Positions 7,782-60,070 of a stretch of 64,000 bases of DNA are shown one piece after another (within the stretch, counting starts at the first letter, position 1; each line of letters starts with the position of its first letter). Location: contig NZ_JBMFOX010000002.1 of NCBI RefSeq assembly GCF_049969415.1, positions 41,467-105,466 of the forward strand, read 5' to 3'. Under the pieces are notes generated by a model, which was not told where the DNA came from, ran no database searches, and was given only the letters and a program-made list of their open reading frames with translations. A program made the translations under genes and the position numbers. Source of the stretch: Candidatus Hadarchaeum sp. (GTDB lineage Archaea; Hadarchaeota; Hadarchaeia; Hadarchaeales; Hadarchaeaceae).

Positions 7782-8447
7782 CTAGGCATCCTCGATCACA
7801 TGCAAATGCGAGGCGCTAGTTAACTTCAGCTCGACTTTTCCGTTGTAGAGCTGCACCCAGCCGTCCACTCGGACGGTATCACCGACGTGCACTTCGGGCA
7901 AGCCATCTTCGACAATCCAAGACGGAATGAAGACCTGTATCAGGTTACCGTCATCTTGTAGCGTCAGCACCAGATTTCCGCTCCCAACGATTTCACGCTT
8001 GGAGATTACACCTTGGACCTTGGCTGGAGAGCCGGCGTTTGCCTCGGTGATTTCGGACAACGCCACCGGCGCTGTATGCACGACTTTGATGTCTTCAGCT
8101 TCCTCTGGAATAACTTCAAACTCCCCTTGGTAGAGGGCGACCTCCCCCGTTATCTCCACGTTGTCCAGCAGCTCAATTAAGTCCTCAAGTTGGGCACGGG
8201 TTCGGGAGAAAATCGGCACGTTGACGAGGCTGCCGGACTTATCCTTCACCTTCAAAAAGAGGTGCCCCGCCTCATGTTCCCGATAGTCGATGACCTGTCC
8301 CGACACGGAGACCCTAAGACCGATGAAGCTCTCGTTCAGGCTAGCGATTGGCGTGATTCTAGGCCTGTTCGAGATCGCGGCCGCATATATGGCGGCCAAG
8401 CCCACCAAGGAACATATCAGGCTCAGCTTAGCCATGTTTCTTGCCAT
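7782..8447 (-). CDS. Membrane-anchored tandem OB-fold nucleic-acid-binding protein
   Basis: N-terminal hydrophobic anchor; two OB repeats (VSVSGQV..GHLFLKVKDKSG..YQGEFEV; KVQGVI..LTLQDD..YNGKVEL). Confidence 0.75.
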   Translation of the reverse strand: MARNMAKLSLICSLVGLAAIYAAAISNRPRITPIASLNESFIGLRVSVSGQVIDYREHEAGHLFLKVKDKSGSLVNVPIFSRTRAQLEDLIELLDNVEITGEVALYQGEFEVIPEEAEDIKVVHTAPVALSEITEANAGSPAKVQGVISKREIVGSGNLVLTLQDDGNLIQVFIPSWIVEDGLPEVHVGDTVRVDGWVQLYNGKVELKLTSASHLHVIEDA

Positions 8448-42318: not shown

Positions 42319-43659
42319 ATGAGAAGGGTTGAGATATTGACCAAGGACGAGATAATCCAGACGGTGGAAAAGGAAGGCATCAAGTTCATCCAGATGCAGT
42401 TCACCGACATTTTGGGCACGGTGAAAAATGTCACCATTCCCGCCACCAAGATCGAAAAGGCGTTGGACGAAGGAGTCTTCTTTGATGGTTCTTCTGTTTT
42501 AGGCTATGCCACCATCGAGGAATCTGACATGCGCCTGATGCCGGATCCGGAGACTTTCGTGATCATTCCATGGTTGCAGGACAATCTTAAGACGGCGCGG
42601 ATGGTCTGCGATGTGTATGACCATGAGGGCAATCCATTTGAAGGAGATCCGCGGGCGGCATTAAAGCGGCAGCTGGAAAGGGCTAGGAAAAAGGGGTGGA
42701 TTTTTAACACGGCTCCTGAGTACGAGTTCTTTTTCTTGATGTTGGATGAACAGGGGCTGCCCACAACCAGACCTTCAGATTCCGGCGGTTACTTTGACCT
42801 CATGCGGGACAGGGGAGACCTCATCAGAAAGGAAATAGTTAACTACCTTAATCTGATGGGATTCGATGTGGAGGCTTCGCATCATGAGGTTGCCCCCGGA
42901 CAGCATGAGATAGACCTCATGTACACCGATGCCATGACCTCAGCCGATAGGGTGGCCATGATGAAGTACGTCACCAAGAATATTGCCTACCGCCACGGGC
43001 TCTACGCCACCTTCATGCCCAAGCCAATTTACGGCGTCAACGGCTCGGGAATGCACGTTCATCAGTCGCTCATGACGCTTGAAGGGAAAAATGTGTTTTA
43101 CGATCCTAAGGGTCCGTACAAGCTGAGCAAGTATGCGCTTTACTTCATCGGTGGGCTCCTGAAGCACGCCAAGGAAACCTGTGCCATTTTGGCTTCGACG
43201 GTTAACTCCTACAAGAGGCTGGTTCCCGGATATGAGGCCCCAGTTTACATTTCTTGGGCGAACAGAAACAGGAGCGCTTACATTCGCGTTCCGGCGGGCA
43301 GGGAATCCCACACCCGCATTGAGTTGCGAAACCCTGACCCTGCAGGCAACCCCTACCTCCAGTTCACGGTGATGTTAGCCGCCGGGCTAAAGGGGATCGA
43401 GGAGAAGATAGAGCCTCCGGAGCCTGTGGAAAAGGACATCTACCACATGGGCACCGAGGAGCGCGAGGCTTTAGGCATCGAATCGCTTCCGGAGAACTTG
43501 GGGCAGGCGCTGGATTATATGCGCCGGAGCCAGCTGGTAATGGATGCGCTGGGTGAGCATCTGTTCAAGCACTTTATCCATGTCAAGGAGAAGGAGTGGG
43601 AGAGCTATCGAGCCCACGTGAGCGATTGGGAACACAAATTTTTGTTGCCAGCGCTGTAA
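42319..43659 (+). CDS. glnA: Glutamine synthetase type I
   Basis: FDGSS, HHEVAPGQHEI, TFMPKP..NGSGMH.HQS, NSYKRLVPGYEAP, RIELR.PD. Confidence 0.98.
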   Translation: MRRVEILTKDEIIQTVEKEGIKFIQMQFTDILGTVKNVTIPATKIEKALDEGVFFDGSSVLGYATIEESDMRLMPDPETFVIIPWLQDNLKTARMVCDVYDHEGNPFEGDPRAALKRQLERARKKGWIFNTAPEYEFFFLMLDEQGLPTTRPSDSGGYFDLMRDRGDLIRKEIVNYLNLMGFDVEASHHEVAPGQHEIDLMYTDAMTSADRVAMMKYVTKNIAYRHGLYATFMPKPIYGVNGSGMHVHQSLMTLEGKNVFYDPKGPYKLSKYALYFIGGLLKHAKETCAILASTVNSYKRLVPGYEAPVYISWANRNRSAYIRVPAGRESHTRIELRNPDPAGNPYLQFTVMLAAGLKGIEEKIEPPEPVEKDIYHMGTEEREALGIESLPENLGQALDYMRRSQLVMDALGEHLFKHFIHVKEKEWESYRAHVSDWEHKFLLPAL

Positions 43660-43689
43660 TCAAAAAATTTAGTATTTTTGATTTTTGGC

Positions 43690-43889
43690 GCGGGGACGAT
43701 CGCGAAACTACTCCGCGGCGGCTCGGTTACCCAGCCGCGCTTTCGTTTCGAGATCTTTATCCGACATCCATGCTTCGGTACACACTGCCGTGACCTTATC
43801 CACGGCCTCCCCCAGCTGCGCTGAGTTTTTCCGTGGATCCCCCGAACCCGTGGGTTCGAGTTCAGCCTGTTCTGTCGGCTTATCCCCGC
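43690..43889 (-). ncRNA. Unassigned structured ncRNA, copy 1 (200 nt)
   Basis: GC-rich island in an AT-rich spacer; terminal 7-bp stem GCGGGGA/UCCCCGC; nested stems with GNRA loops on the minus strand; own promoter; structural paralogue at 58616-58849. Confidence 0.8.
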
Positions 43890-43912
43890 AATTTCCATTT
43901 AACAAATTTTTA

Positions 43913-43989: not shown

Positions 43990-45252
43990 TTACGGGAAGA
44001 GACCCAGTCTTTCTTGGGCGTCTATTACCCTTTTGACACCGAGGATGTAGGCGCCTGTGGGCAAATCAACTTGGTATTCATTCGCAGTCTTTGAAGCGTC
44101 GTGGTAAGCTTTCACCATGTGATTTTCTAGTTTTTGGTTGACCTCGCTTTCGCTCCAGTGCTCTCGGTGGAGGTTTTGTATCCATTCAAAATAGCTGACG
44201 GTAACCCCACCTGCGTTGGCCAGGATATCGGGAACGACGAGCACTCCCTGCTCGTGCAATATTTCCCTAGCTTTTGGCGTGCTGGGACCATTCGCGCCCT
44301 CAGATATGATTTTTGCCTTGATTTTGCTCGCGTTCGCCTCGGTTATCACGTTTTCCATCGCCGCCGGTACCAGAATATCGCACTCTAGCTGTAGGAGTTC
44401 TTCATTGGTAATCTCCTCTCCGCGGCCGAACCCACGCAACTTACCTGTTTTCTCCTTGTGTTTTATCGCGGCTTTGACATCAAATCCCTTCGGATCGTAG
44501 ATGCCGCAGGTTGAGTCGCTCAAGCCAATTATCTTACAACCCATCTCTTCGAGGACCGCCGCTGCCCACTGGCCGACGTTGCCAAAGCCCTGAACCACGG
44601 CCGTTAGTCCTTTCATTTTCAGCCCCAGTTGTTTGGCGGCCTCTCTGGCACAGATGGCCGCACCGCGTCCGGTCGCTTGTTTTCTCCCCTCAGAACCGCC
44701 GAGTTCAATCGGCTTTCCGGTGACGACTTCAGGTACCATATAACCCCTGAGCTGGCTGTAAGTGTCCATTATCCAGGCCATCGTTTGGGCATCGGTGTAC
44801 ATATCCGGAGCCGGCACATCTTTGAAGGGGCCGATGTCGTCAAAGATCATGGCAGTATATCTTCTCGTCAATCTTTCAATTTCACCCTTCGACAACTGTT
44901 TTGTATCCACAGTTACGCCACCCTTGGCCCCGCCGTAGGGTATATCAACCACGGCGCATTTCCAAGTCATCCACATCGCCAGTGCCTTGACTTCGTCCAT
45001 GTCGACTTTCGGATGGTATCTTATGCCTCCCTTGAAAGGACCTCTAGCGTGGCAATGCTGGACTCGGTAGCCGGTAAAAACCTTTATTTCCCCGTTGTCC
45101 ATGCGCACGGGAACGGAGACAATAATTGTTCGGCGTGGGTGTTTTAATCTTATAGTTACACAAGGGTCCAACTTCAATATTTCTTCAATAATTTCCAATT
45201 GTTCTACCGCGGCTTTGTATGGGTTTAAATTGCTTGCCGTAATGTCACCCAA
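43990..45252 (-). CDS. gdhA: Glutamate dehydrogenase
   Basis: RGPFKGGIRYHP, MTWKCA, GGAKGG, DVPAPD, VQGFGNVG, NAGGVTVSYFEW. Confidence 0.97.
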   Translation of the reverse strand: MGDITASNLNPYKAAVEQLEIIEEILKLDPCVTIRLKHPRRTIIVSVPVRMDNGEIKVFTGYRVQHCHARGPFKGGIRYHPKVDMDEVKALAMWMTWKCAVVDIPYGGAKGGVTVDTKQLSKGEIERLTRRYTAMIFDDIGPFKDVPAPDMYTDAQTMAWIMDTYSQLRGYMVPEVVTGKPIELGGSEGRKQATGRGAAICAREAAKQLGLKMKGLTAVVQGFGNVGQWAAAVLEEMGCKIIGLSDSTCGIYDPKGFDVKAAIKHKEKTGKLRGFGRGEEITNEELLQLECDILVPAAMENVITEANASKIKAKIISEGANGPSTPKAREILHEQGVLVVPDILANAGGVTVSYFEWIQNLHREHWSESEVNQKLENHMVKAYHDASKTANEYQVDLPTGAYILGVKRVIDAQERLGLFP

Positions 45253-56506: not shown

Positions 56507-56869
56507 ATGGGAAAGAAGATCCTGTATCTCCAGACCAGTGGGGTTGACACACCTGAGCGCACATATGCACCCTTTATCTTGGCGACCACGGCGGCAGCGA
56601 TGGGGATAGAGGCAACGATTTACTTTTTGATAAAGGGAGTTACCTTGGTCAAGAAGGGCGAGGCGGAGAAAATTAAATTGGGAAGTTTTCCCCCACTGAA
56701 GCAGGTGATGGATCAAGCGGTTCGGGCTGGCGTGAAGCTTGAGGTCTGTGAGCAGAGCTGTCAGCTGCTGGGGTTGGGTCGCGGAGACTTTGTAGAGCCA
56801 GCCAAGATTGTTGGTGCGGCAACGTTAAACGATCGAGTTCTGGAAGCCGATGCGGTCCTGTGCTTCTGA
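56507..56869 (+). CDS. DsrE/F-like protein
   Basis: APFILATTAAAMG, FLIKGV, VCEQS, IVGAAT. Confidence 0.85.
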   Translation: MGKKILYLQTSGVDTPERTYAPFILATTAAAMGIEATIYFLIKGVTLVKKGEAEKIKLGSFPPLKQVMDQAVRAGVKLEVCEQSCQLLGLGRGDFVEPAKIVGAATLNDRVLEADAVLCF

Positions 56870-56879
56870 AGGGACGGTA

Positions 56880-58064
56880 ATGATGAGAAGGGTTTACTTG
56901 GATCATGCCGCTGGTAGGCCGGTAGATGCCCGCGTCATCGAGGCCATGCTCCCTTACTTCATCCAGAAGTACGGGAATCCTTCCCTGGTCCACACCCCTG
57001 GCAATGAAGCCCGCGAGGCGATTGAAGTAGCTCGTGAAAAAGTGGCGAGGCTAATCGGGGCTTCCAAAAAGGAGGAGATCGTTTTTACCTCTGGAGCCAC
57101 GGAGAGCAATAATCTGGCCCTGAAGGGGGTGGCGTTGAGAAACCGTGACCGCGGCAATCACATTATCACTAGTTCCATCGAGCACATGTCGGTGATCAAC
57201 GTCTGTAAGGATCTGGCGAAGCAGGGGTTTGAGATCACCTATCTGCCCGTGGACAGATACGGCGTGGTCGATGTTGAGGCCCTGAAAAAGGAGATGACGG
57301 AGAGAACGGTTCTGGTGTCGATAATGTACGCCAACGGCGAAATCGGGACCATCGAGCCGATTAAAGAGATCAGCGACGTAGTTCACGACCACGGCGCATT
57401 GCTGCACGTGGATGCCGTGGCCGCCGCAGGACAGATTCCGATAGATGTCGAGGCGGAGCATGTCGATTTGCTTTCGCTTTCGTCCAACGATATTTACGGC
57501 CCCCGCGGTGTGGGAGCCCTCTACATCAGGTCGGGAACCCGGATCATGCCAATTTTGCAAGGGGGCGGTCAGGAGCGGGGACTGAGGTCGGGGACGGAGA
57601 ACTTGCCCGGCATCGTTGGAATGGGCAAGGCCGCTGAGATTGCTGGCGCTGAGATGGAGGTAGAATCGCGAAGGTTGACAGTGTTGCGGGATAGGTTGAT
57701 CCGAGGCATTCTGGAGACCATCCCGGTTTCCTTTCTCAACGGACATCCGACTAACCGGCTGCCAAACAACGCCAACGTCCGGTTTAGCTACATCGAAGGC
57801 GAGGCCCTGATATTGAGCTTGGACATGGAGGGTGTGGTCTGCTCCTCCGGTTCTGCCTGCACCTCGAAGACGCTCGAGCCCTCCCACGTGTTGCTGGCCA
57901 CAGGACTGAAGCACGAGGAGGCGCACGGGTCGCTCCTGTTTACTCTCGGGAGGCAGAACACTGAAGAGGATATGGAGTACGTGTTGGGTTTATTACCTGG
58001 AATTGTGAAAAGGTTGCGGGTAATGTCTCCGCTCACGCCGAAGGAGTTGGTTGCTGATGTATAG
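56880..58064 (+). CDS. iscS: Cysteine desulfurase IscS/NifS
   Basis: YLDHAA, GNPS, FTSGATESNN, RSGTEN, SSGSAC; PLP-site reads SSNDIYGP instead of S.HK.YGP. Confidence 0.9.
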   Translation: MMRRVYLDHAAGRPVDARVIEAMLPYFIQKYGNPSLVHTPGNEAREAIEVAREKVARLIGASKKEEIVFTSGATESNNLALKGVALRNRDRGNHIITSSIEHMSVINVCKDLAKQGFEITYLPVDRYGVVDVEALKKEMTERTVLVSIMYANGEIGTIEPIKEISDVVHDHGALLHVDAVAAAGQIPIDVEAEHVDLLSLSSNDIYGPRGVGALYIRSGTRIMPILQGGGQERGLRSGTENLPGIVGMGKAAEIAGAEMEVESRRLTVLRDRLIRGILETIPVSFLNGHPTNRLPNNANVRFSYIEGEALILSLDMEGVVCSSGSACTSKTLEPSHVLLATGLKHEEAHGSLLFTLGRQNTEEDMEYVLGLLPGIVKRLRVMSPLTPKELVADV

Positions 58065-58434
58065 CGATAAGGTGATGGAACACTTCAGGAACCCGCGCAA
58101 CATGGGGGAGATTCCGGATGCCGATGGCGTTGGCACCGTGGGCAACCCCGTCTGCGGGGACATGATGACGATCTACATCAAGGTAAAGGACAACAGGATC
58201 GCCGACATCAAGTTCAAGACCTTTGGCTGCGGTGCCGCGATAGCTACCAGCAGCATGACCACCGAGCTGGCCAAGGGCAAGACCATTGAGGAGGCGCTGC
58301 GGATCACCAGGGAGGATGTGGCCAGGGATTTGGGAGGACTGCCTCCCGTGAAGATGCACTGTTCCAATCTGGCCGCGGACGCGTTGCATGCAGCGATAAA
58401 GGATTACCTGCAAAAGGAGGTAAAAAATGACTGA
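58057..58434 (+). CDS. iscU: Fe-S cluster scaffold IscU/NifU
   Basis: HFRNPRN, NPVCGD, FGCGAAIA, LPPVKMHCS. Confidence 0.96.
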   Translation: MYSDKVMEHFRNPRNMGEIPDADGVGTVGNPVCGDMMTIYIKVKDNRIADIKFKTFGCGAAIATSSMTTELAKGKTIEEALRITREDVARDLGGLPPVKMHCSNLAADALHAAIKDYLQKEVKND

Positions 58435-58582
58435 GTTTGTAAGGTGCCGGATGTGTGGCTTGGAGCTGCGTGGCGAGAAGTGCCTCTTTGCCACACATCG
58501 AAGGGTGATTGGTGGTAGAGAATATCTCTTTTGTTGCGAAAAGCATGCTGAGGAATTTGAGAAGAAAATGGCGAAAAAGTAA
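58427..58582 (+). CDS. Small TRASH/YHS-like metal-binding protein (51 aa, not in ORF track)
   Basis: Own translation MTEFVRCRMCGLELRGEKCLFATHRRVIGGREYLFCCEKHAEEFEKKMAKK; SD AAGGAGGT; overlaps the iscU end. Confidence 0.8.
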   Translation: MTEFVRCRMCGLELRGEKCLFATHRRVIGGREYLFCCEKHAEEFEKKMAKK

Positions 58583-58605
58583 AGTCAGATTTTTTCTCTA
58601 AATCC

Positions 58606-58615
58606 CAAATAAAAA
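58606..58615 (-). terminator. Oligo-U terminator of ncRNA copy 2
   Basis: Minus strand UUUUUAUUUG directly after the terminal stem. Confidence 0.55.
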
Positions 58616-58849
58616 GCGGCAGGGACTCGATCCCTCCACTACTCGTCCAGCGAGCTTGCGAATCTCGACCACTTCGCTCACTCGCCGTCTTTTCGTGTTG
58701 GGATCTTTTTCCTGCAGTCGCTGTCTCGTCCCGTTCCCCCACGGGACTTACCCGCGTCCTTCCCCGGTTTTTCGCCCGGGTTTTTACACGGGTCCCCGTT
58801 GCCCGTAGGCTCCGGTTCGACCACCTCTGCAGGCTTTGATCCCTGCCGC
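58616..58849 (-). ncRNA. Unassigned structured ncRNA, copy 2 (234 nt)
   Basis: 10-bp terminal stem GCGGCAGGGA/UCCCUGCCGC; cUACGg tetraloop; same stem order and junction motifs as 43690-43889; own promoter and U-tract. Confidence 0.8.
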
Positions 58850-58870
58850 ACTATTATCTACGTGTCTTTG

Positions 58871-58886
58871 TTTTTAAAGATTTTTT
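58871..58886 (-). promoter_or_regulatory. BRE + TATA promoter of ncRNA copy 2
   Basis: Minus strand AAAAAATC TTTAAAAA, with the TATA at about -29 to -22 from the first G. Confidence 0.65.
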
Positions 58887-59032
58887 GCCAAGTTGAGATA
58901 TTTCAGAATTGGGAAATGTGAAAAAAGATGATTGTTTCAGTAATTCGGATTTTATTTCACCCGATTTTGTAATTTTGCATTTTTATTTGGCCGGAAGAAG
59001 AAGCGATTGGAAAAGAGCAAAAATAACTGAAC

Positions 59033-60070
59033 TTACGAATCGAAATATGCCGGGCTGTCACTTTGCGATGATTTCAAAATCGCCAGCGACATCTCCAGCG
59101 CTTTTTTGGCGTCTGAGAGTTTCACCAGCGGCTCTTCGCCTTTTAGCGCCACCGACTTGAGAAAATATTCGTCCTCGGGCTTGTGCCCCCATTTCTCAGG
59201 CCGTGACAGCTTTAGCGGGTACTCCGTCACCCTTCCGCCCGATTTCAGGATTACCTTCTCCGGACCGTCCACGATTATGGTGCCGCTTTCGCCCGTGATT
59301 TCCATCCTAAGCGGTGGCCCCGGGACGCTGCTATCCTCACTGGCAAACATGTTGGTCCAGACGACGTCGTTTCTGAACTTGATGGCGTTGAAAACCCGGT
59401 ACCCCCAGGTGCCGTACTTGGGCAGCTCCAGCCAATCAATCTTTGCTGTCAGCGAGGCCGGCTCCGAGTTCAGCACCCATCGAGTCAGGTCCATGCAGAA
59501 GATGGTCATCGTTATTATCGGGCCTCCGGTGGCCCTGTTCCAGGCCCATGATCCCGGCGCCCATTGCCTTGCTAGGCTGTCCGCGGGCACAAATTCGGTA
59601 AAGCTAATGGATATCGGATTGCCGATTTCACCCGCGTCGAGGAGATCCTTTACTTTTCGGAAACAGGGGGCGAACCGGTAGCAGAGCCCAGGCATCACCC
59701 GAACGTTTTTGGTCCTTGCCAGTTCACTGAGGCGGTCTATTCCTTGAGGCGTGTCTGAAGGGGGACATTCCAGAAGGGCGGTCTTACCGGCCCGCAAGAT
59801 TCCACTGGCGATGGTCTCCATGAATCTTGGAGGCACGGCGCAGATGACCGCCTCGACATCAGGGTCGTTGGTCATCTCTTCAATTTCAGTGTAAAACTTT
59901 TTCACCTTGAACCCCAAGCCGGCGGCGAACTCCTTAAACTTTTCGTGTTCTGCGGGAAACTTGGACCAGGCGGCAACTATTTCTGCTTTCGGTATCTCGG
60001 CCAGGGCCCTGGAATGGATCCGGGCCATAAATCCCAAGCCGGCAAGCCCAATCCCAACTTTTTCCATCAA
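59033..60070 (-). CDS. Gfo/Idh/MocA family oxidoreductase
   Basis: GLAGLGFMA Rossmann fold, LLECPP (EKP-like), RFAP, GEIG. Confidence 0.85.
   Translation of the reverse strand: MMEKVGIGLAGLGFMARIHSRALAEIPKAEIVAAWSKFPAEHEKFKEFAAGLGFKVKKFYTEIEEMTNDPDVEAVICAVPPRFMETIASGILRAGKTALLECPPSDTPQGIDRLSELARTKNVRVMPGLCYRFAPCFRKVKDLLDAGEIGNPISISFTEFVPADSLARQWAPGSWAWNRATGGPIITMTIFCMDLTRWVLNSEPASLTAKIDWLELPKYGTWGYRVFNAIKFRNDVVWTNMFASEDSSVPGPPLRMEITGESGTIIVDGPEKVILKSGGRVTEYPLKLSRPEKWGHKPEDEYFLKSVALKGEEPLVKLSDAKKALEMSLAILKSSQSDSPAYFDS

What the first reader, a model, noticed from the sequence alone, without database searches (positions are those of the whole stretch)
58616..58849. ncRNA copy 2: independent transcript downstream of the Isc operon
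A 234-nt element with a perfect 10-bp terminal stem, a cUACGg tetraloop, a TATA at about -29 to -22 and UUUUU immediately after. The octamer GUGGUCGA occurs twice, in P2b and in the distal P6 loop, which could allow alternative pairing (inference). The ORF-track frames overlapping it have no protein-like features.
Basis: partly seen in the sequence, partly recalled or inferred. Interest (0 to 1): 0.8.

Follow-up and report, generated by a model that had tools for sequence, protein, structure and literature searches.

The report
New structured RNA family of Hadesarchaea
This is a real gene for a roughly 234-base, tightly folded non-coding RNA that belongs to a previously undescribed multi-copy RNA family found only in the deep-subsurface and hot-spring archaea called Hadesarchaea; its job is still unknown.

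Summary
The element is real. It lies on the minus strand (RNA 5' end 58849, 3' end 58616). It folds far better than shuffles (z -10.6). It has an archaeal BRE/TATA promoter and an oligo-T terminator.

It is one of three paralogs in this genome.

A covariance model finds the family in 51 of 66 genomes of the phylum, with 1-6 matches each. A pattern scan of 185,579 species genomes hit only Hadarchaeota-type records. On an independent metagenome set, 52 of 60 base pairs show compensatory changes.

No Rfam 15 family matches. The genome has normal RNase P, SRP and 5S RNAs elsewhere.

In a sediment metatranscriptome, contigs at least 90% identical cover only the element and stop at its ends. Two of them join the 3' end back to the 5' end, which hints at a circular form; an artefact is not excluded.

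Function is not established. My best reading is a stable, trans-acting, protein-binding RNA. The repeated-octamer idea is not conserved (4 of 58 members).

The parts
58616..58849 (-). The RNA gene (type A family member, 234 nt). P1 closes a three-way junction that carries the P2-P5 arm and the long P6 arm.
   Evidence: MFE -125.9, z -10.6. CM score 244.4 bits, E 1e-64. Covariation.
58871..58878 (-). TATA box (TTTAAAAA), at -29..-22 relative to G1.
   Evidence: Sequence. A/T-rich TATA at -30..-23 relative to the conserved G3 in 68 family members.
58879..58888 (-). A-rich BRE-like stretch (GGCAAAAAATC) just upstream of the TATA box.
   Evidence: A-rich at -39..-33 across 68 members. The name BRE is an inference from established archaeal promoter anatomy.
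58889..58898 (-). Upstream element CTCAACTTGG, matching the family-wide tCCAyTTTy block at about -50..-41.
   Evidence: Seen by eye in many of the 68 upstream regions, from different loci; not counted. Function not tested.
58611..58615 (-). Oligo-T terminator (UUUUU) directly after P1.
   Evidence: T4 within 12 nt after P1 in 67 of 68 members.
58839..58849 (-). P1, 5' strand (RNA 1-11).
   Evidence: Pairs with 58616-58626. All 7 modelled P1 pairs have compensatory changes; 99.0% of cells are paired.
58616..58626 (-). P1, 3' strand (RNA 224-234).
58711..58833 (-). P2-P5 arm (RNA 17-139). P2/P2b close a four-way junction with the P3 hairpin (cUACGg loop at 58804-58807), P4 (5x5 A-rich internal loop, GCGAAAAA loop) and P5.
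   Evidence: Helices 2-7 are 93.6-99.0% paired, with compensatory changes in 28 of 34 pairs.
58706..58710 (-). J2/6 linker AAAAA, within the conserved GGGAAAAAGRYCC.
   Evidence: Invariant or near-invariant columns G138-C149.
58629..58705 (-). P6 arm (RNA 145-221). It carries an internal loop GAAAA (58690-58694) opposite AGUA (58640-58643) and an apical 10-nt loop.
   Evidence: helices 8-11. A157-A160, A207, U209 and A210 are invariant in 58 sequences. The likeness to a loop-E/bulged-G motif is recalled, not tested.
58663..58672 (-). P6 apical loop GUGGUCGAGA (RNA 178-187). Its core UGGUCGA is invariant in type A members and absent from type B.
   Evidence: U179-A185 are invariant in 58 of 58. 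Type B alignment.
43687..43892 (-). It has the same core but a different, shorter P6 tip. It lies between glnA (42319-43659, +) and gdh (43990-45252, -).
   Evidence: CM 106.7 bits, E 1.4e-27. Sequence. Neighbours.

Best explanation
Window 58849->58616 (minus strand) is a stand-alone gene for a roughly 234-nt highly structured non-coding RNA. It belongs to a multi-copy RNA family that, in the collections searched, occurs only in Hadarchaeota (Hadesarchaea).

SHOWN:
- The family has a conserved archaeal promoter, with BRE/TATA placed so that transcription should start at about G1-G3, and an oligo-T terminator.
- The fold is fixed by covariation. P1 joins the two ends. One arm is a four-way junction (P2-P5). 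The other is a long P6 helix with a GAAAA/AGUA internal loop and, in type A members, an invariant UGGUCGA loop.
- Genomes hold 1-6 matches, at three or more conserved locus classes.
- Sequences at least 90% identical are present in RNA libraries as pieces that stop at the element's ends.

INFERRED (about 35% likely): the RNA acts in trans as a stable protein-binding or RNP-scaffold RNA. The invariant purine-rich junctions, the loop-E-like motif and the P6 tip would be the contact sites.

INFERRED (about 45% likely): the two ends, held together by P1, are ligated after removal of a few 5' nucleotides. This would give a roughly 229-nt circle that resists exonucleases at high temperature, as reported for other archaeal non-coding RNAs.
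For: Fold: z -10.57.

Covariation:
- 44 of 60 pairs are compensatory in 58 genome copies.
- On 85 distinct metagenome copies, 96.4% of cells are paired against 80.6 +/- 0.3 in shuffles, and 52 of 60 pairs are compensatory against 38.1 +/- 2.3 (0 of 500 shuffles reach either value). Slid controls give 32.6-45.5% paired.
- Many G-U pairs fit only the minus strand.

Promoter and terminator: the A-rich BRE, the TATA at -30..-23 and T4 within 12 nt are found in 67 of 68 members.

Distribution:
- 3 members in the own genome.
- 51 of 65 genomes of the order and 51 of 66 of the phylum.
- 70 of 70 pattern hits among 185,579 species genomes are archaeal MAGs: 64 titled Hadarchae*/Hadesarchaea, 4 Hodarchaeaceae, 1 Methanobacteriota archaeon and 1 uncultured archaeon.
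- 0 hits in viral contigs.

Not a known RNA:
- 0 Rfam matches at gathering threshold in the window.
- Nothing relevant at E<=10.
- 0 of 20 diverse members hit any family at the element.
- Bona fide RNase P RNA, SRP RNA and 5S rRNA lie elsewhere in the genome.

Expression:
- In run X4 (sediment RNA-Seq), 32 contigs were laid, all within 58610-58857. Only 0.02 of them run on into unlike sequence, and the flanks have depth 0.
- In run X10, 1 contig covers 58683-58832.
- By contrast the probably-DNA run X3 runs on into flanks (share 1).

Circle:
- X4 contigs join 58844 to 58616 (241-nt contig, depth 715) and 58836 to 58627 with 3 letters between (203-nt contig, depth 680).
- No such head-to-tail junction is found in DNA of JGI metagenome contigs.
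- Precedent: circular C/D box, RNase P and 7S RNAs, with heterogeneous junctions, in Sulfolobus and Pyrococcus (PMC3326292, abstract and passages read).
Against: No function was tested and no partner protein was found.

- Gene neighbours are ordinary housekeeping genes and differ between locus classes.
- The 2 proteins and 2 Pfam families tried order-wide for a matching presence/absence pattern gave no candidate.
- The family is absent from some fairly complete genomes: G016 (95% complete, 9 contigs), G029, G033, G050 and G045, with no match even at E<=1. It is therefore not essential to every member of the order.

The RNA evidence comes from relatives (90-99% identity), not proven to be this organism, and from contigs. 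Contigs cannot give strand, ends or level.

The head-to-tail joints could come from reverse-transcriptase template switching on a very abundant RNA, kept by the assembler. The two joints differ from each other. The one raw-read run tried (X13) laid no read.

With a start at G1-G3 there is no leader to form a bulge-helix-bulge site, so the route to a circle is unexplained.
Confidence: 0.6

Rival explanations
1. A trans-acting base-pairing regulator or guide. The invariant P6 loop (GUGGUCGAGA) pairs with an mRNA, tRNA or rRNA target.
For: The 7-nt core UGGUCGA is invariant in 58 of 58 type A members while the stem below it covaries. This is what a recognition loop looks like.
Against: No complementary site (10-14-mers, at most 1 mismatch) exists in the genome's own 16S, 23S or 5S rRNA. 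None of the 32 predicted tRNAs ends in ...UCGA(CCA). The genome-wide count of the complement is about 3 times a uniform-composition estimate on both strands alike, so it is uninformative. Type B members lack the loop yet keep the core. An RNA this large and rigid is atypical for an antisense regulator.
Confidence: 0.15
2. A ribozyme or self-processing RNA. Its conserved four-way junction and internal loops would form an active site, for example for trimming or joining its own ends.
For: There are invariant purine-rich junction nucleotides. The core is compact and multi-helix, with two conserved internal loops. Head-to-tail joints occur in an RNA library.
Against: No match to any self-cleaving ribozyme family of Rfam 15. 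There is almost no leader or trailer to remove. No cleavage site is defined. Nothing was tested biochemically.
Confidence: 0.1
3. A cis-acting element of a neighbouring gene: a 3' UTR, terminator, leader or riboswitch.
For: Twenty instances lie about 52 nt upstream of PolB on the same strand, and 11 of 109 lie 125-260 nt downstream of an aldehyde:ferredoxin oxidoreductase gene on the same strand.
Against: The element has its own promoter and terminator in 67 of 68 members. In the window it is convergent with the Isc genes. In the most conserved locus it is divergent from a DRG-type GTPase and convergent with a geranylgeranyl-reductase-like gene. The neighbours have no common function. RNA contigs stop at the element's ends.
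Confidence: 0.05
4. A mobile or selfish repeat, such as a MITE with terminal inverted repeats or a viroid-like or satellite element.
For: Terminal 10-bp inverted repeat; several copies per genome. The site between the reductase and GTPase genes is empty in G016, with a 29-nt spacer.
Against: Copies sit at conserved syntenic sites across genera (32, 24 and 20 instances per neighbour class). Substitutions preserve RNA pairing throughout, not only at the ends. The promoter is conserved. There are 0 hits in viral contigs. No transposase lies nearby.
Confidence: 0.03
5. A small protein-coding gene.
For: Stop-free runs of at least 60 codons are common on the antisense strand of members (43-46 of 58).
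Against: One-nucleotide indels inside the element give lengths of 230, 234, 235 and 236 nt. The substitution pattern is pair-preserving. No Pfam match for any overlapping ORF. The stop-free runs follow from the purine-rich composition.
Confidence: 0.01

Closest known systems
Archaeal housekeeping structured RNAs (RNase P RNA, SRP 7S RNA, 5S rRNA)
   Same: Own promoter and terminator. A terminal helix joins the 5' and 3' ends. Several helices are fixed by covariation. The sequence is prominent in an RNA library. P6 carries an AGUA/GAA-type internal loop like loop E of 5S rRNA (that likeness is recalled, not tested).
   Different: No covariance-model match to RF00373, RF01857 or RF00001. All three are present elsewhere in the genome. 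This family is multi-copy, restricted to one phylum and missing from some fairly complete genomes.
Orphan large or ornate non-coding RNAs known from bacteria (OLE, ROOL, GOLLD, raiA) and the Hgc/SscA RNAs of Thermococcales/Methanococcales (names recalled; OLE abstract seen in the listing)
   Same: Lineage-restricted and strongly structured, with a function not deducible from gene context. OLE is reported as very highly expressed and bound by a partner protein (PMC3413148, abstract in listing only).
   Different: No sequence or structure match in Rfam 15. The host is archaeal. Several paralogous types occur per genome. No linked protein gene was found.
Circular non-coding RNAs of hyperthermophilic archaea (C/D box sRNAs, segments of RNase P and 7S RNA; Danan et al. 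2012, PMC3326292)
   Same: Head-to-tail junction in RNA data. The ends are juxtaposed by a terminal helix. Junction position is heterogeneous. Relatives live in hot or deep habitats (passages read).
   Different: Here the evidence is two assembled contigs from one library, not permuted reads or RT-PCR. No boxes C/D or ACA are present in the sequence (read directly). No bulge-helix-bulge site can be drawn at P1.
Y RNA / bacterial YrlA (recalled from memory)
   Same: Small families of paralogous RNAs in which a long stem formed by both ends carries a variable upper module; they act as protein-bound scaffolds.
   Different: No Rfam match. A Ro60/TROVE protein was not searched for here. The internal architecture is much larger.

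Membership tests
Archaeal RNase P RNA (RF00373) | Match to the family covariance model (P4 pseudoknot, CR-I/CR-V) | tested here: not met
   No RNase P match in 58300-59200 at E<=10, nor in the window at gathering threshold. The genome's RNase P RNA is on contig C1, 196 bits.
Archaeal SRP RNA (RF01857) | Match to the family covariance model | tested here: not met
   No match. The genome's SRP RNA is on contig C16, 156.9 bits.
5S rRNA (RF00001) | Match to the model; about 120 nt; three-way junction | tested here: not met
   No match. Normal 5S genes are present in 5 of 5 genomes tested, including two without this RNA.
Any Rfam 15 family (4227 models) | A score at or near the gathering threshold, reproducible across members | tested here: not met
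   0 matches in the 64-kb window. Across 20 diverse members, 4 weak matches (E 0.98-8.3) appeared, none at the element.
C/D box or H/ACA guide sRNA | Boxes C (RUGAUGA) and D (CUGA), or an ACA 3 nt from the 3' end with a pseudouridylation pocket | tested here: not met
   Read directly from the 234-nt sequence: no UGAUGA, no CUGA, no 3' ACA. The box sequences are recalled.
Riboswitch / cis-regulatory leader | Lies in the 5' UTR of the regulated gene on the same strand; gene context recurs functionally | tested here: not met
   Own promoter and terminator. Convergent with its neighbours in the window and in the main locus class. Only the PolB class (20 of 82 instances) has a same-strand downstream gene.
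Bulge-helix-bulge processed circular RNA | Two 3-nt bulges separated by a 4-bp helix at the cut sites | tested here: not met
   P1 is a continuous helix and the promoter leaves no leader. The motif definition is recalled.
Bulge-helix-bulge processed circular RNA | Junction-spanning reads in RNA but not in DNA | tested here: inconclusive
   Two junction contigs in one RNA run. 0 junction matches in JGI metagenome contigs. The raw-read run laid nothing.
MITE / mobile repeat | Variable insertion sites, terminal inverted repeats, target-site duplications | tested here: not met
   Syntenic sites are conserved across genera. Pair-preserving evolution extends along the whole element. Target-site duplications were not examined.
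tRNA-like / tmRNA-like element | Detected by a tRNA/tmRNA finder or the Rfam tRNA/tmRNA models; acceptor plus T-arm | tested here: not met
   No Rfam tRNA/tmRNA match. Aragorn on the whole genome lists 32 tRNAs, none at C2:100082-100315. The local GGGAUCGAGUCCC hairpin competes with P1/P6, which covariation supports.

The most novel reading that the evidence does not exclude
A new class of abundant, covalently circular, catalytic or substrate-binding RNA that is unique to Hadarchaeota. One version: the invariant UGGU... loop of P6 could grip the ACCA 3' ends of tRNAs, in the way that T-box RNAs and bacterial RNase P RNA do (a recalled analogy). Another version: the conserved four-way-junction core is an active site that also matures the RNA's own ends.
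Probability: 0.07. Interest if true: 0.9.

Novelty: categorically new. Interest (0 to 1): 0.75.

Why it matters
Very few large structured RNA classes are known from archaea beyond the universal ones. This one comes from an uncultured phylum that is known only from metagenomes.

The family has a well-determined secondary structure with 52 of 60 pairs covarying. It has invariant junction nucleotides, several paralogous types per roughly 1-Mb genome, and a strong signal in an environmental RNA library. Such features usually mark an RNA with a biochemical job, either in an RNP or as a ribozyme.

It offers three things:
- a ready covariance model for annotating Hadarchaeota genomes;
- a specific and abundant transcript marker for these organisms in metatranscriptomes;
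- a tractable target for structure determination and partner hunting, including the question of whether and how archaea circularise such RNAs without a bulge-helix-bulge site.

Novelty caveat: it rests on Rfam 15 and on four full-text searches. Subscription-journal papers and supplements were not visible.

Tried and rejected
1. BLAST for 'copy 1' inside the window found nothing. The covariance model found it.

2. Targets of the invariant loop:
   - the genome-wide count of its complement is inflated about 3-fold on both strands, so it is uninformative;
   - there is no complementarity to the own 16S, 23S or 5S rRNA;
   - 0 of 32 tRNAs end in UCGA(CCA).

3. Partner protein by presence/absence.
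   - I fetched a whole genome without the RNA (G016) and a distant one with it (G037).
   - Of 1638 crude ORFs of the own genome, 705 had no tblastn hit in G016. Of those, 106 hit G037 over at least half their length.
   - Pfam was run on 70 of the 106. The other 36 were not scanned.
   - Two candidates were tested order-wide. A conserved 413-aa protein of no family was found in 53 of 65 genomes: in 6 of 7 of genus g15, which lacks the RNA, and in 0 of 3 of family f5, which has it. A KH-domain ATPase was found in 41 of 65, including 7 of 7 of g15. Neither tracks the RNA.
   - Aldehyde:ferredoxin oxidoreductase (62 of 65) does not track it either.
   - PF09414 (RNA ligase) gave only 26-33-bit hits inside frames of 335-821 aa (mostly 540-600 aa). 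These probably reflect the related domain of DNA ligase (inference), so they are uninformative.

4. A head-to-tail junction pattern in JGI metagenome contigs gave 0 hits. This does not test RNA.

5. The raw-read RNA run X13 laid 0 reads out of about 10.1 million records read (about 12% of the run), so it is no test.

6. The upstream regions of PolB in five genomes without the RNA could not be cut out.

7. The K-turn, T-loop, tmRNA-like and hairpin-ribozyme likenesses I considered by eye did not fit the sequence. I do not claim them.

Full report
OBSERVATION

The RNA 5' end is at 58849 and the 3' end at 58616.

All listed details check out:
- The terminal stem is 10 bp and perfect, followed by one G.U pair.
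- There is a cUACGg hairpin.
- TTTAAAAA lies at -29..-22.
- UUUUU follows directly after the element.
- GUGGUCGA is present at RNA 26-33 and 178-185.

The minus-strand RNA folds to -125.9 kcal/mol. Two hundred dinucleotide shuffles give -78.4 +/- 4.5 (z -10.57, none as good). The plus strand folds less well (z -7.06).

The predicted shape has P1 closing a three-way junction.
- One arm (P2/P2b) opens into a four-way junction with three hairpins: P3, P4 and P5.
- The other arm is a long helix, P6, with an internal loop and a 10-nt apical loop.

SURROUNDINGS

On the plus strand, upstream, lie four genes:
- a DsrE-like gene;
- IscS (56850-58064);
- IscU (58051-58434);
- a 51-aa ORF with a weak TRASH-domain match (58427-58582).

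The RNA gene is convergent with them. On the RNA's own strand the preceding gene is a GFO/IDH/MocA oxidoreductase, which ends at 59033, 183 nt before the RNA start. The RNA is therefore beside the Isc genes and not part of their transcript.

IT IS A FAMILY

BLAST finds a second copy in the same genome, on contig C13, at 82% identity. BLAST also finds copies in 42 of 61 related genomes.

I aligned 58 copies (A1). RNAalifold gives 60 pairs, and 44 of them have compensatory double changes.

A covariance model built from this alignment (R1) scores the window copy at 244 bits. It also reveals a third, divergent member in the window at 43687-43892(-): 206 nt, 106.7 bits, E 1.4e-27. BLAST had missed it. 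This 'type B' form keeps P1-P5 and the base of P6 but has a different, shorter P6 tip.

With R1, the family is found in 51 of 65 genomes of the order and 51 of 66 of the phylum.

| Group | Genomes with a match |
|---|---|
| f1, besides the window's own genome | 39 of 45 |
| f2 | 6 of 6 |
| f3 | 1 of 1 |
| f5 | 3 of 3 |
| f4 | 1 of 9 |
| At least 90% complete | 20 of 25 |

Each genome with the family has 1-6 matches, though matches are not copy numbers. In one genus a type B and a type A gene stand in tandem about 84 nt apart.

Five genomes gave nothing even at E<=1: three of genus g10, one of which is 95% complete in 9 contigs, and two of g15.

TAXON

I scanned one genome from each of 185,579 prokaryote species with an exact degenerate pattern that matches 51 of the 58 aligned copies. 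The scan gave 70 stretches, all from archaeal MAGs:

| Record title | Stretches |
|---|---|
| Hadarchaeota / Hadarchaeales / Hadarchaeum / Hadesarchaea | 64 |
| Candidatus Hodarchaeaceae | 4 |
| Methanobacteriota archaeon | 1 |
| uncultured archaeon | 1 |

The most similar named records, at 96-97% identity and with the same promoter, are titled Candidatus Hadarchaeum. Viral contigs gave 0 hits.

INDEPENDENT TEST OF THE STRUCTURE

R1 found 90 matches in 80 metagenome loci plus two controls. Pairs were then counted on the 85 distinct rows:

| Measure | Observed | 500 shuffles (mean +/- sd; shuffles reaching observed) | Partner slid 1-3 columns |
|---|---|---|---|
| Cells paired | 96.4% | 80.6 +/- 0.3 (0 of 500) | 32.6-45.5% |
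| Pairs with changes on both sides (of 60) | 52 | 38.1 +/- 2.3 (0 of 500) | 22-32 |

The alignment was fitted to the model, which favours the structure. The margin is nonetheless large. All eleven helices show double changes. Frequent G-U pairs fix the strand as minus.

PROMOTER AND TERMINATOR

For 68 non-redundant members with 50 nt of upstream sequence:
- An A-rich block lies at -39..-33 and an A/T block (CTTAAATA or TTATTTATAG types) at -30..-23, both relative to the conserved first G of P1 (G3 of the window copy). This is the spacing of an archaeal BRE/TATA promoter (established knowledge). It puts the start at about G1-G3.
- A further conserved block, tCCAyTTTy, lies at about -50..-41. 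It recurs at different loci and is unexplained.
- Four or more T's follow P1 within 12 nt in 67 of 68 members.

NOT A KNOWN RNA

- No Rfam 15 family reaches its gathering score anywhere in the window.
- At E<=10 the region gives only five chance-level matches to unrelated eukaryotic or bacterial families.
- Twenty diverse members give no match at the element.
- The genome has its own RNase P RNA, SRP RNA and 5S rRNA.
- The sequence has no C/D boxes and no ACA box.
- The overlapping ORFs have no Pfam match, and 1-nt indels break every frame.
- Four full-text searches combining Hadesarchaea/Hadarchaeota with noncoding RNA, Rfam, RNA motif and similar terms returned nothing on such an RNA, judged from listings and abstracts only.

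EXPRESSION

Twelve public runs hold a small share of the words of 58300-59200, and five of them are on record as RNA. I laid four runs at 90% identity or better.

| Run | Type | What was laid |
|---|---|---|
| X4 | sediment RNA-Seq, contigs | 32 contigs, all inside 58610-58857 |
| X10 | microbial-mat RNA | 1 contig, 58683-58832 |
| X3 | probably DNA | 2 contigs that run on into flanks (share 1) |
| X13 | RNA, raw reads | nothing laid, so no test |

Details for X4:
- Seven contigs are at least 99% identical, 16 are 95-99% and 9 are 90-95%.
- Only 0.02 of them run on into unlike sequence, and the flanking genes have depth 0.
- The two long contigs have k-mer depths of 715 and 680.
- The conserved core sums to tens of thousands over many short variant contigs.

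Contigs cannot give strand, ends or level, and these sequences come from relatives. Even so, pieces that stop at the element's borders in an RNA library are what a discrete and abundant transcript predicts. DNA contigs, by contrast, continue into the flanks.

A POSSIBLE CIRCLE

Two X4 contigs join the 3' end back to the 5' end.
- One joins 58844 to 58616 directly. With 2 ambiguous letters, this corresponds to RNA 232-234 joined to RNA 4-6, a circle of 229 nt.
- The other joins 58836 to 58627 with three letters between, so it lacks P1.

No head-to-tail arrangement exists in the DNA loci examined. The closest tandem genes are about 84 nt apart. A junction pattern found nothing in JGI metagenome contigs.

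Circular forms of non-coding RNAs have been reported for Sulfolobus and Pyrococcus. Their junctions vary by a few nucleotides, and the authors suggest that circularisation stabilises the RNAs at high temperature (PMC3326292, passages read).

Against a circle:
- A rare template-switch product of a very abundant RNA could be kept by an assembler.
- The two joints differ.
- No bulge-helix-bulge site can be drawn, because the promoter leaves no leader.

I put the circle at about 45%.

GENOMIC CONTEXT

I examined 82 non-redundant instances (65 type A, 9 type B, 8 partial). Three recurrent locus classes appear:

| Locus class | Arrangement | Instances |
|---|---|---|
| Reductase / GTPase | Between a geranylgeranyl-reductase-like gene (convergent, about 7 nt away) and a DRG-type GTPase (divergent) | 32 (reductase) and 24 (GTPase) |
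| PolB | About 52 nt upstream of family-B DNA polymerase, same strand | 20 |
| AFOR | 125-260 nt downstream of an aldehyde:ferredoxin oxidoreductase gene | 11 of 109 type A, in the larger set |

The own genome's C13 copy belongs to the first class. The window copy's Isc context is shared by only 5 instances, so it is a recent, genus-level paralog.

In the RNA-less genome G016:
- The reductase and GTPase genes are separated by only 29 nt.
- The PolB site holds a 148-nt element that keeps the promoter-like A/T block and the P1 stem (GGCGGGGAGG...CCTCCCCGCC). Its interior is unrelated and A/T-rich.

SEARCH FOR A MECHANISM

The loop's complement is not in the rRNAs or at tRNA 3' ends.

A presence/absence screen compared the own genome with G016 (no RNA) and G037 (RNA present). 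It gave 106 candidate proteins, of which 70 were named by Pfam. The two candidates most likely to bind RNA, or of unknown function, do not track the RNA across the order. Neither does AFOR. An RNA-ligase family search gave only marginal hits. No partner is therefore identified.

What remains is anatomy.
- Invariant purines line both multi-helix junctions.
- P4 carries a conserved 5x5 A-rich internal loop.
- P6 carries a GAAAA/AGUA internal loop, a motif that elsewhere binds proteins or docks helices (recalled).
- The apical loop is invariant in type A and replaced in type B.

These traits, together with multi-copy paralogy and apparent abundance, fit a protein-bound scaffold RNA best (about 35%). 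A base-pairing regulator (15%) and a ribozyme (10%) are next.

VERDICT

This is a genuine, independently transcribed structured RNA gene. It is a member of a Hadarchaeota-specific family that is not in Rfam 15 and that I could not find in print. The repeated-octamer idea does not: both copies are present in only 4 of 58 members.

Noticed in passing
window 43687-43892 (-): Divergent 206-nt 'type B' paralog of the same RNA family, lying between glutamine synthetase (42319-43659, +) and glutamate dehydrogenase (43990-45252, -). It has a TATA-like TTTATTATTAAAAA upstream but no T-run directly after P1; the next T6 run is about 25 nt downstream.
   Followed up: partly
G016:C1:74935-75082 (fetched as L258-L289; upstream of PolB): In a genome that lacks the family, the syntenic PolB-upstream site holds a 148-nt element. 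It has the same P1 stem and a promoter-like A/T block, but its interior is unrelated and A/T-rich and contains a T7 run. It could be a decayed copy, or a different cargo in the same 'frame'.
   Followed up: partly
family-wide, about -50..-41 upstream of P1 (window 58889-58898): A conserved tCCAyTTTy block lies upstream of the BRE and recurs at unrelated loci. It may be a shared transcription-factor site or an extended promoter.
   Followed up: no
genus g8 genomes, e.g. G036:C85:7878-8084 and 8168-8402; L010, L012, L018, L019: Type B and type A genes stand in tandem on the same strand about 84 nt apart, each with its own promoter-like block and T-run.
   Followed up: partly
own genome, contigs C19, C41, C62, C68, C69, C73, C74, C80, C84, C85, C87: The bin holds several SSU and LSU rRNA genes and fragments (5 SSU and 22 LSU matches), more than one organism should have. 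The 23S gene on C19 spans 4673 nt for a 2987-position model and contains two LAGLIDADG endonuclease ORFs, so it probably carries introns.
   Followed up: no
G016 compared with the own genome and G037: The RNA-less genome G016 gave no tblastn match to the own genome's aldehyde:ferredoxin oxidoreductase paralogs, molybdopterin/tungsten cofactor genes (MoeA, MobB, MoaE, MoaD/ThiS, ThiF, MobA-like), DnaK/DnaJ/GrpE or CbiMNQ.
   Followed up: partly
L014, L028-L030, L063, L075, L113, L184, L199, L204, L206: One locus class places the RNA 125-260 nt downstream of an aldehyde:ferredoxin oxidoreductase gene on the same strand (11 of 109 type A members). Several type B copies in the order-wide lists lie within about 50-70 nt of such genes in convergent orientation (by eye).
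   Followed up: partly
window 58427-58582 (+): A 51-aa ORF overlaps the end of IscU by 8 nt. It has a weak archaeal TRASH-domain match (E 4e-4, below the curated cut-off) and may be a small metal-binding protein at the end of the Isc cluster.
   Followed up: no
G016:C1:74820-74900: Just upstream of the 148-nt element lies another G+C-rich stretch whose ends pair (GGGGCGAC...GTCGCCCC). It may be another small RNA. Not analysed.
   Followed up: no
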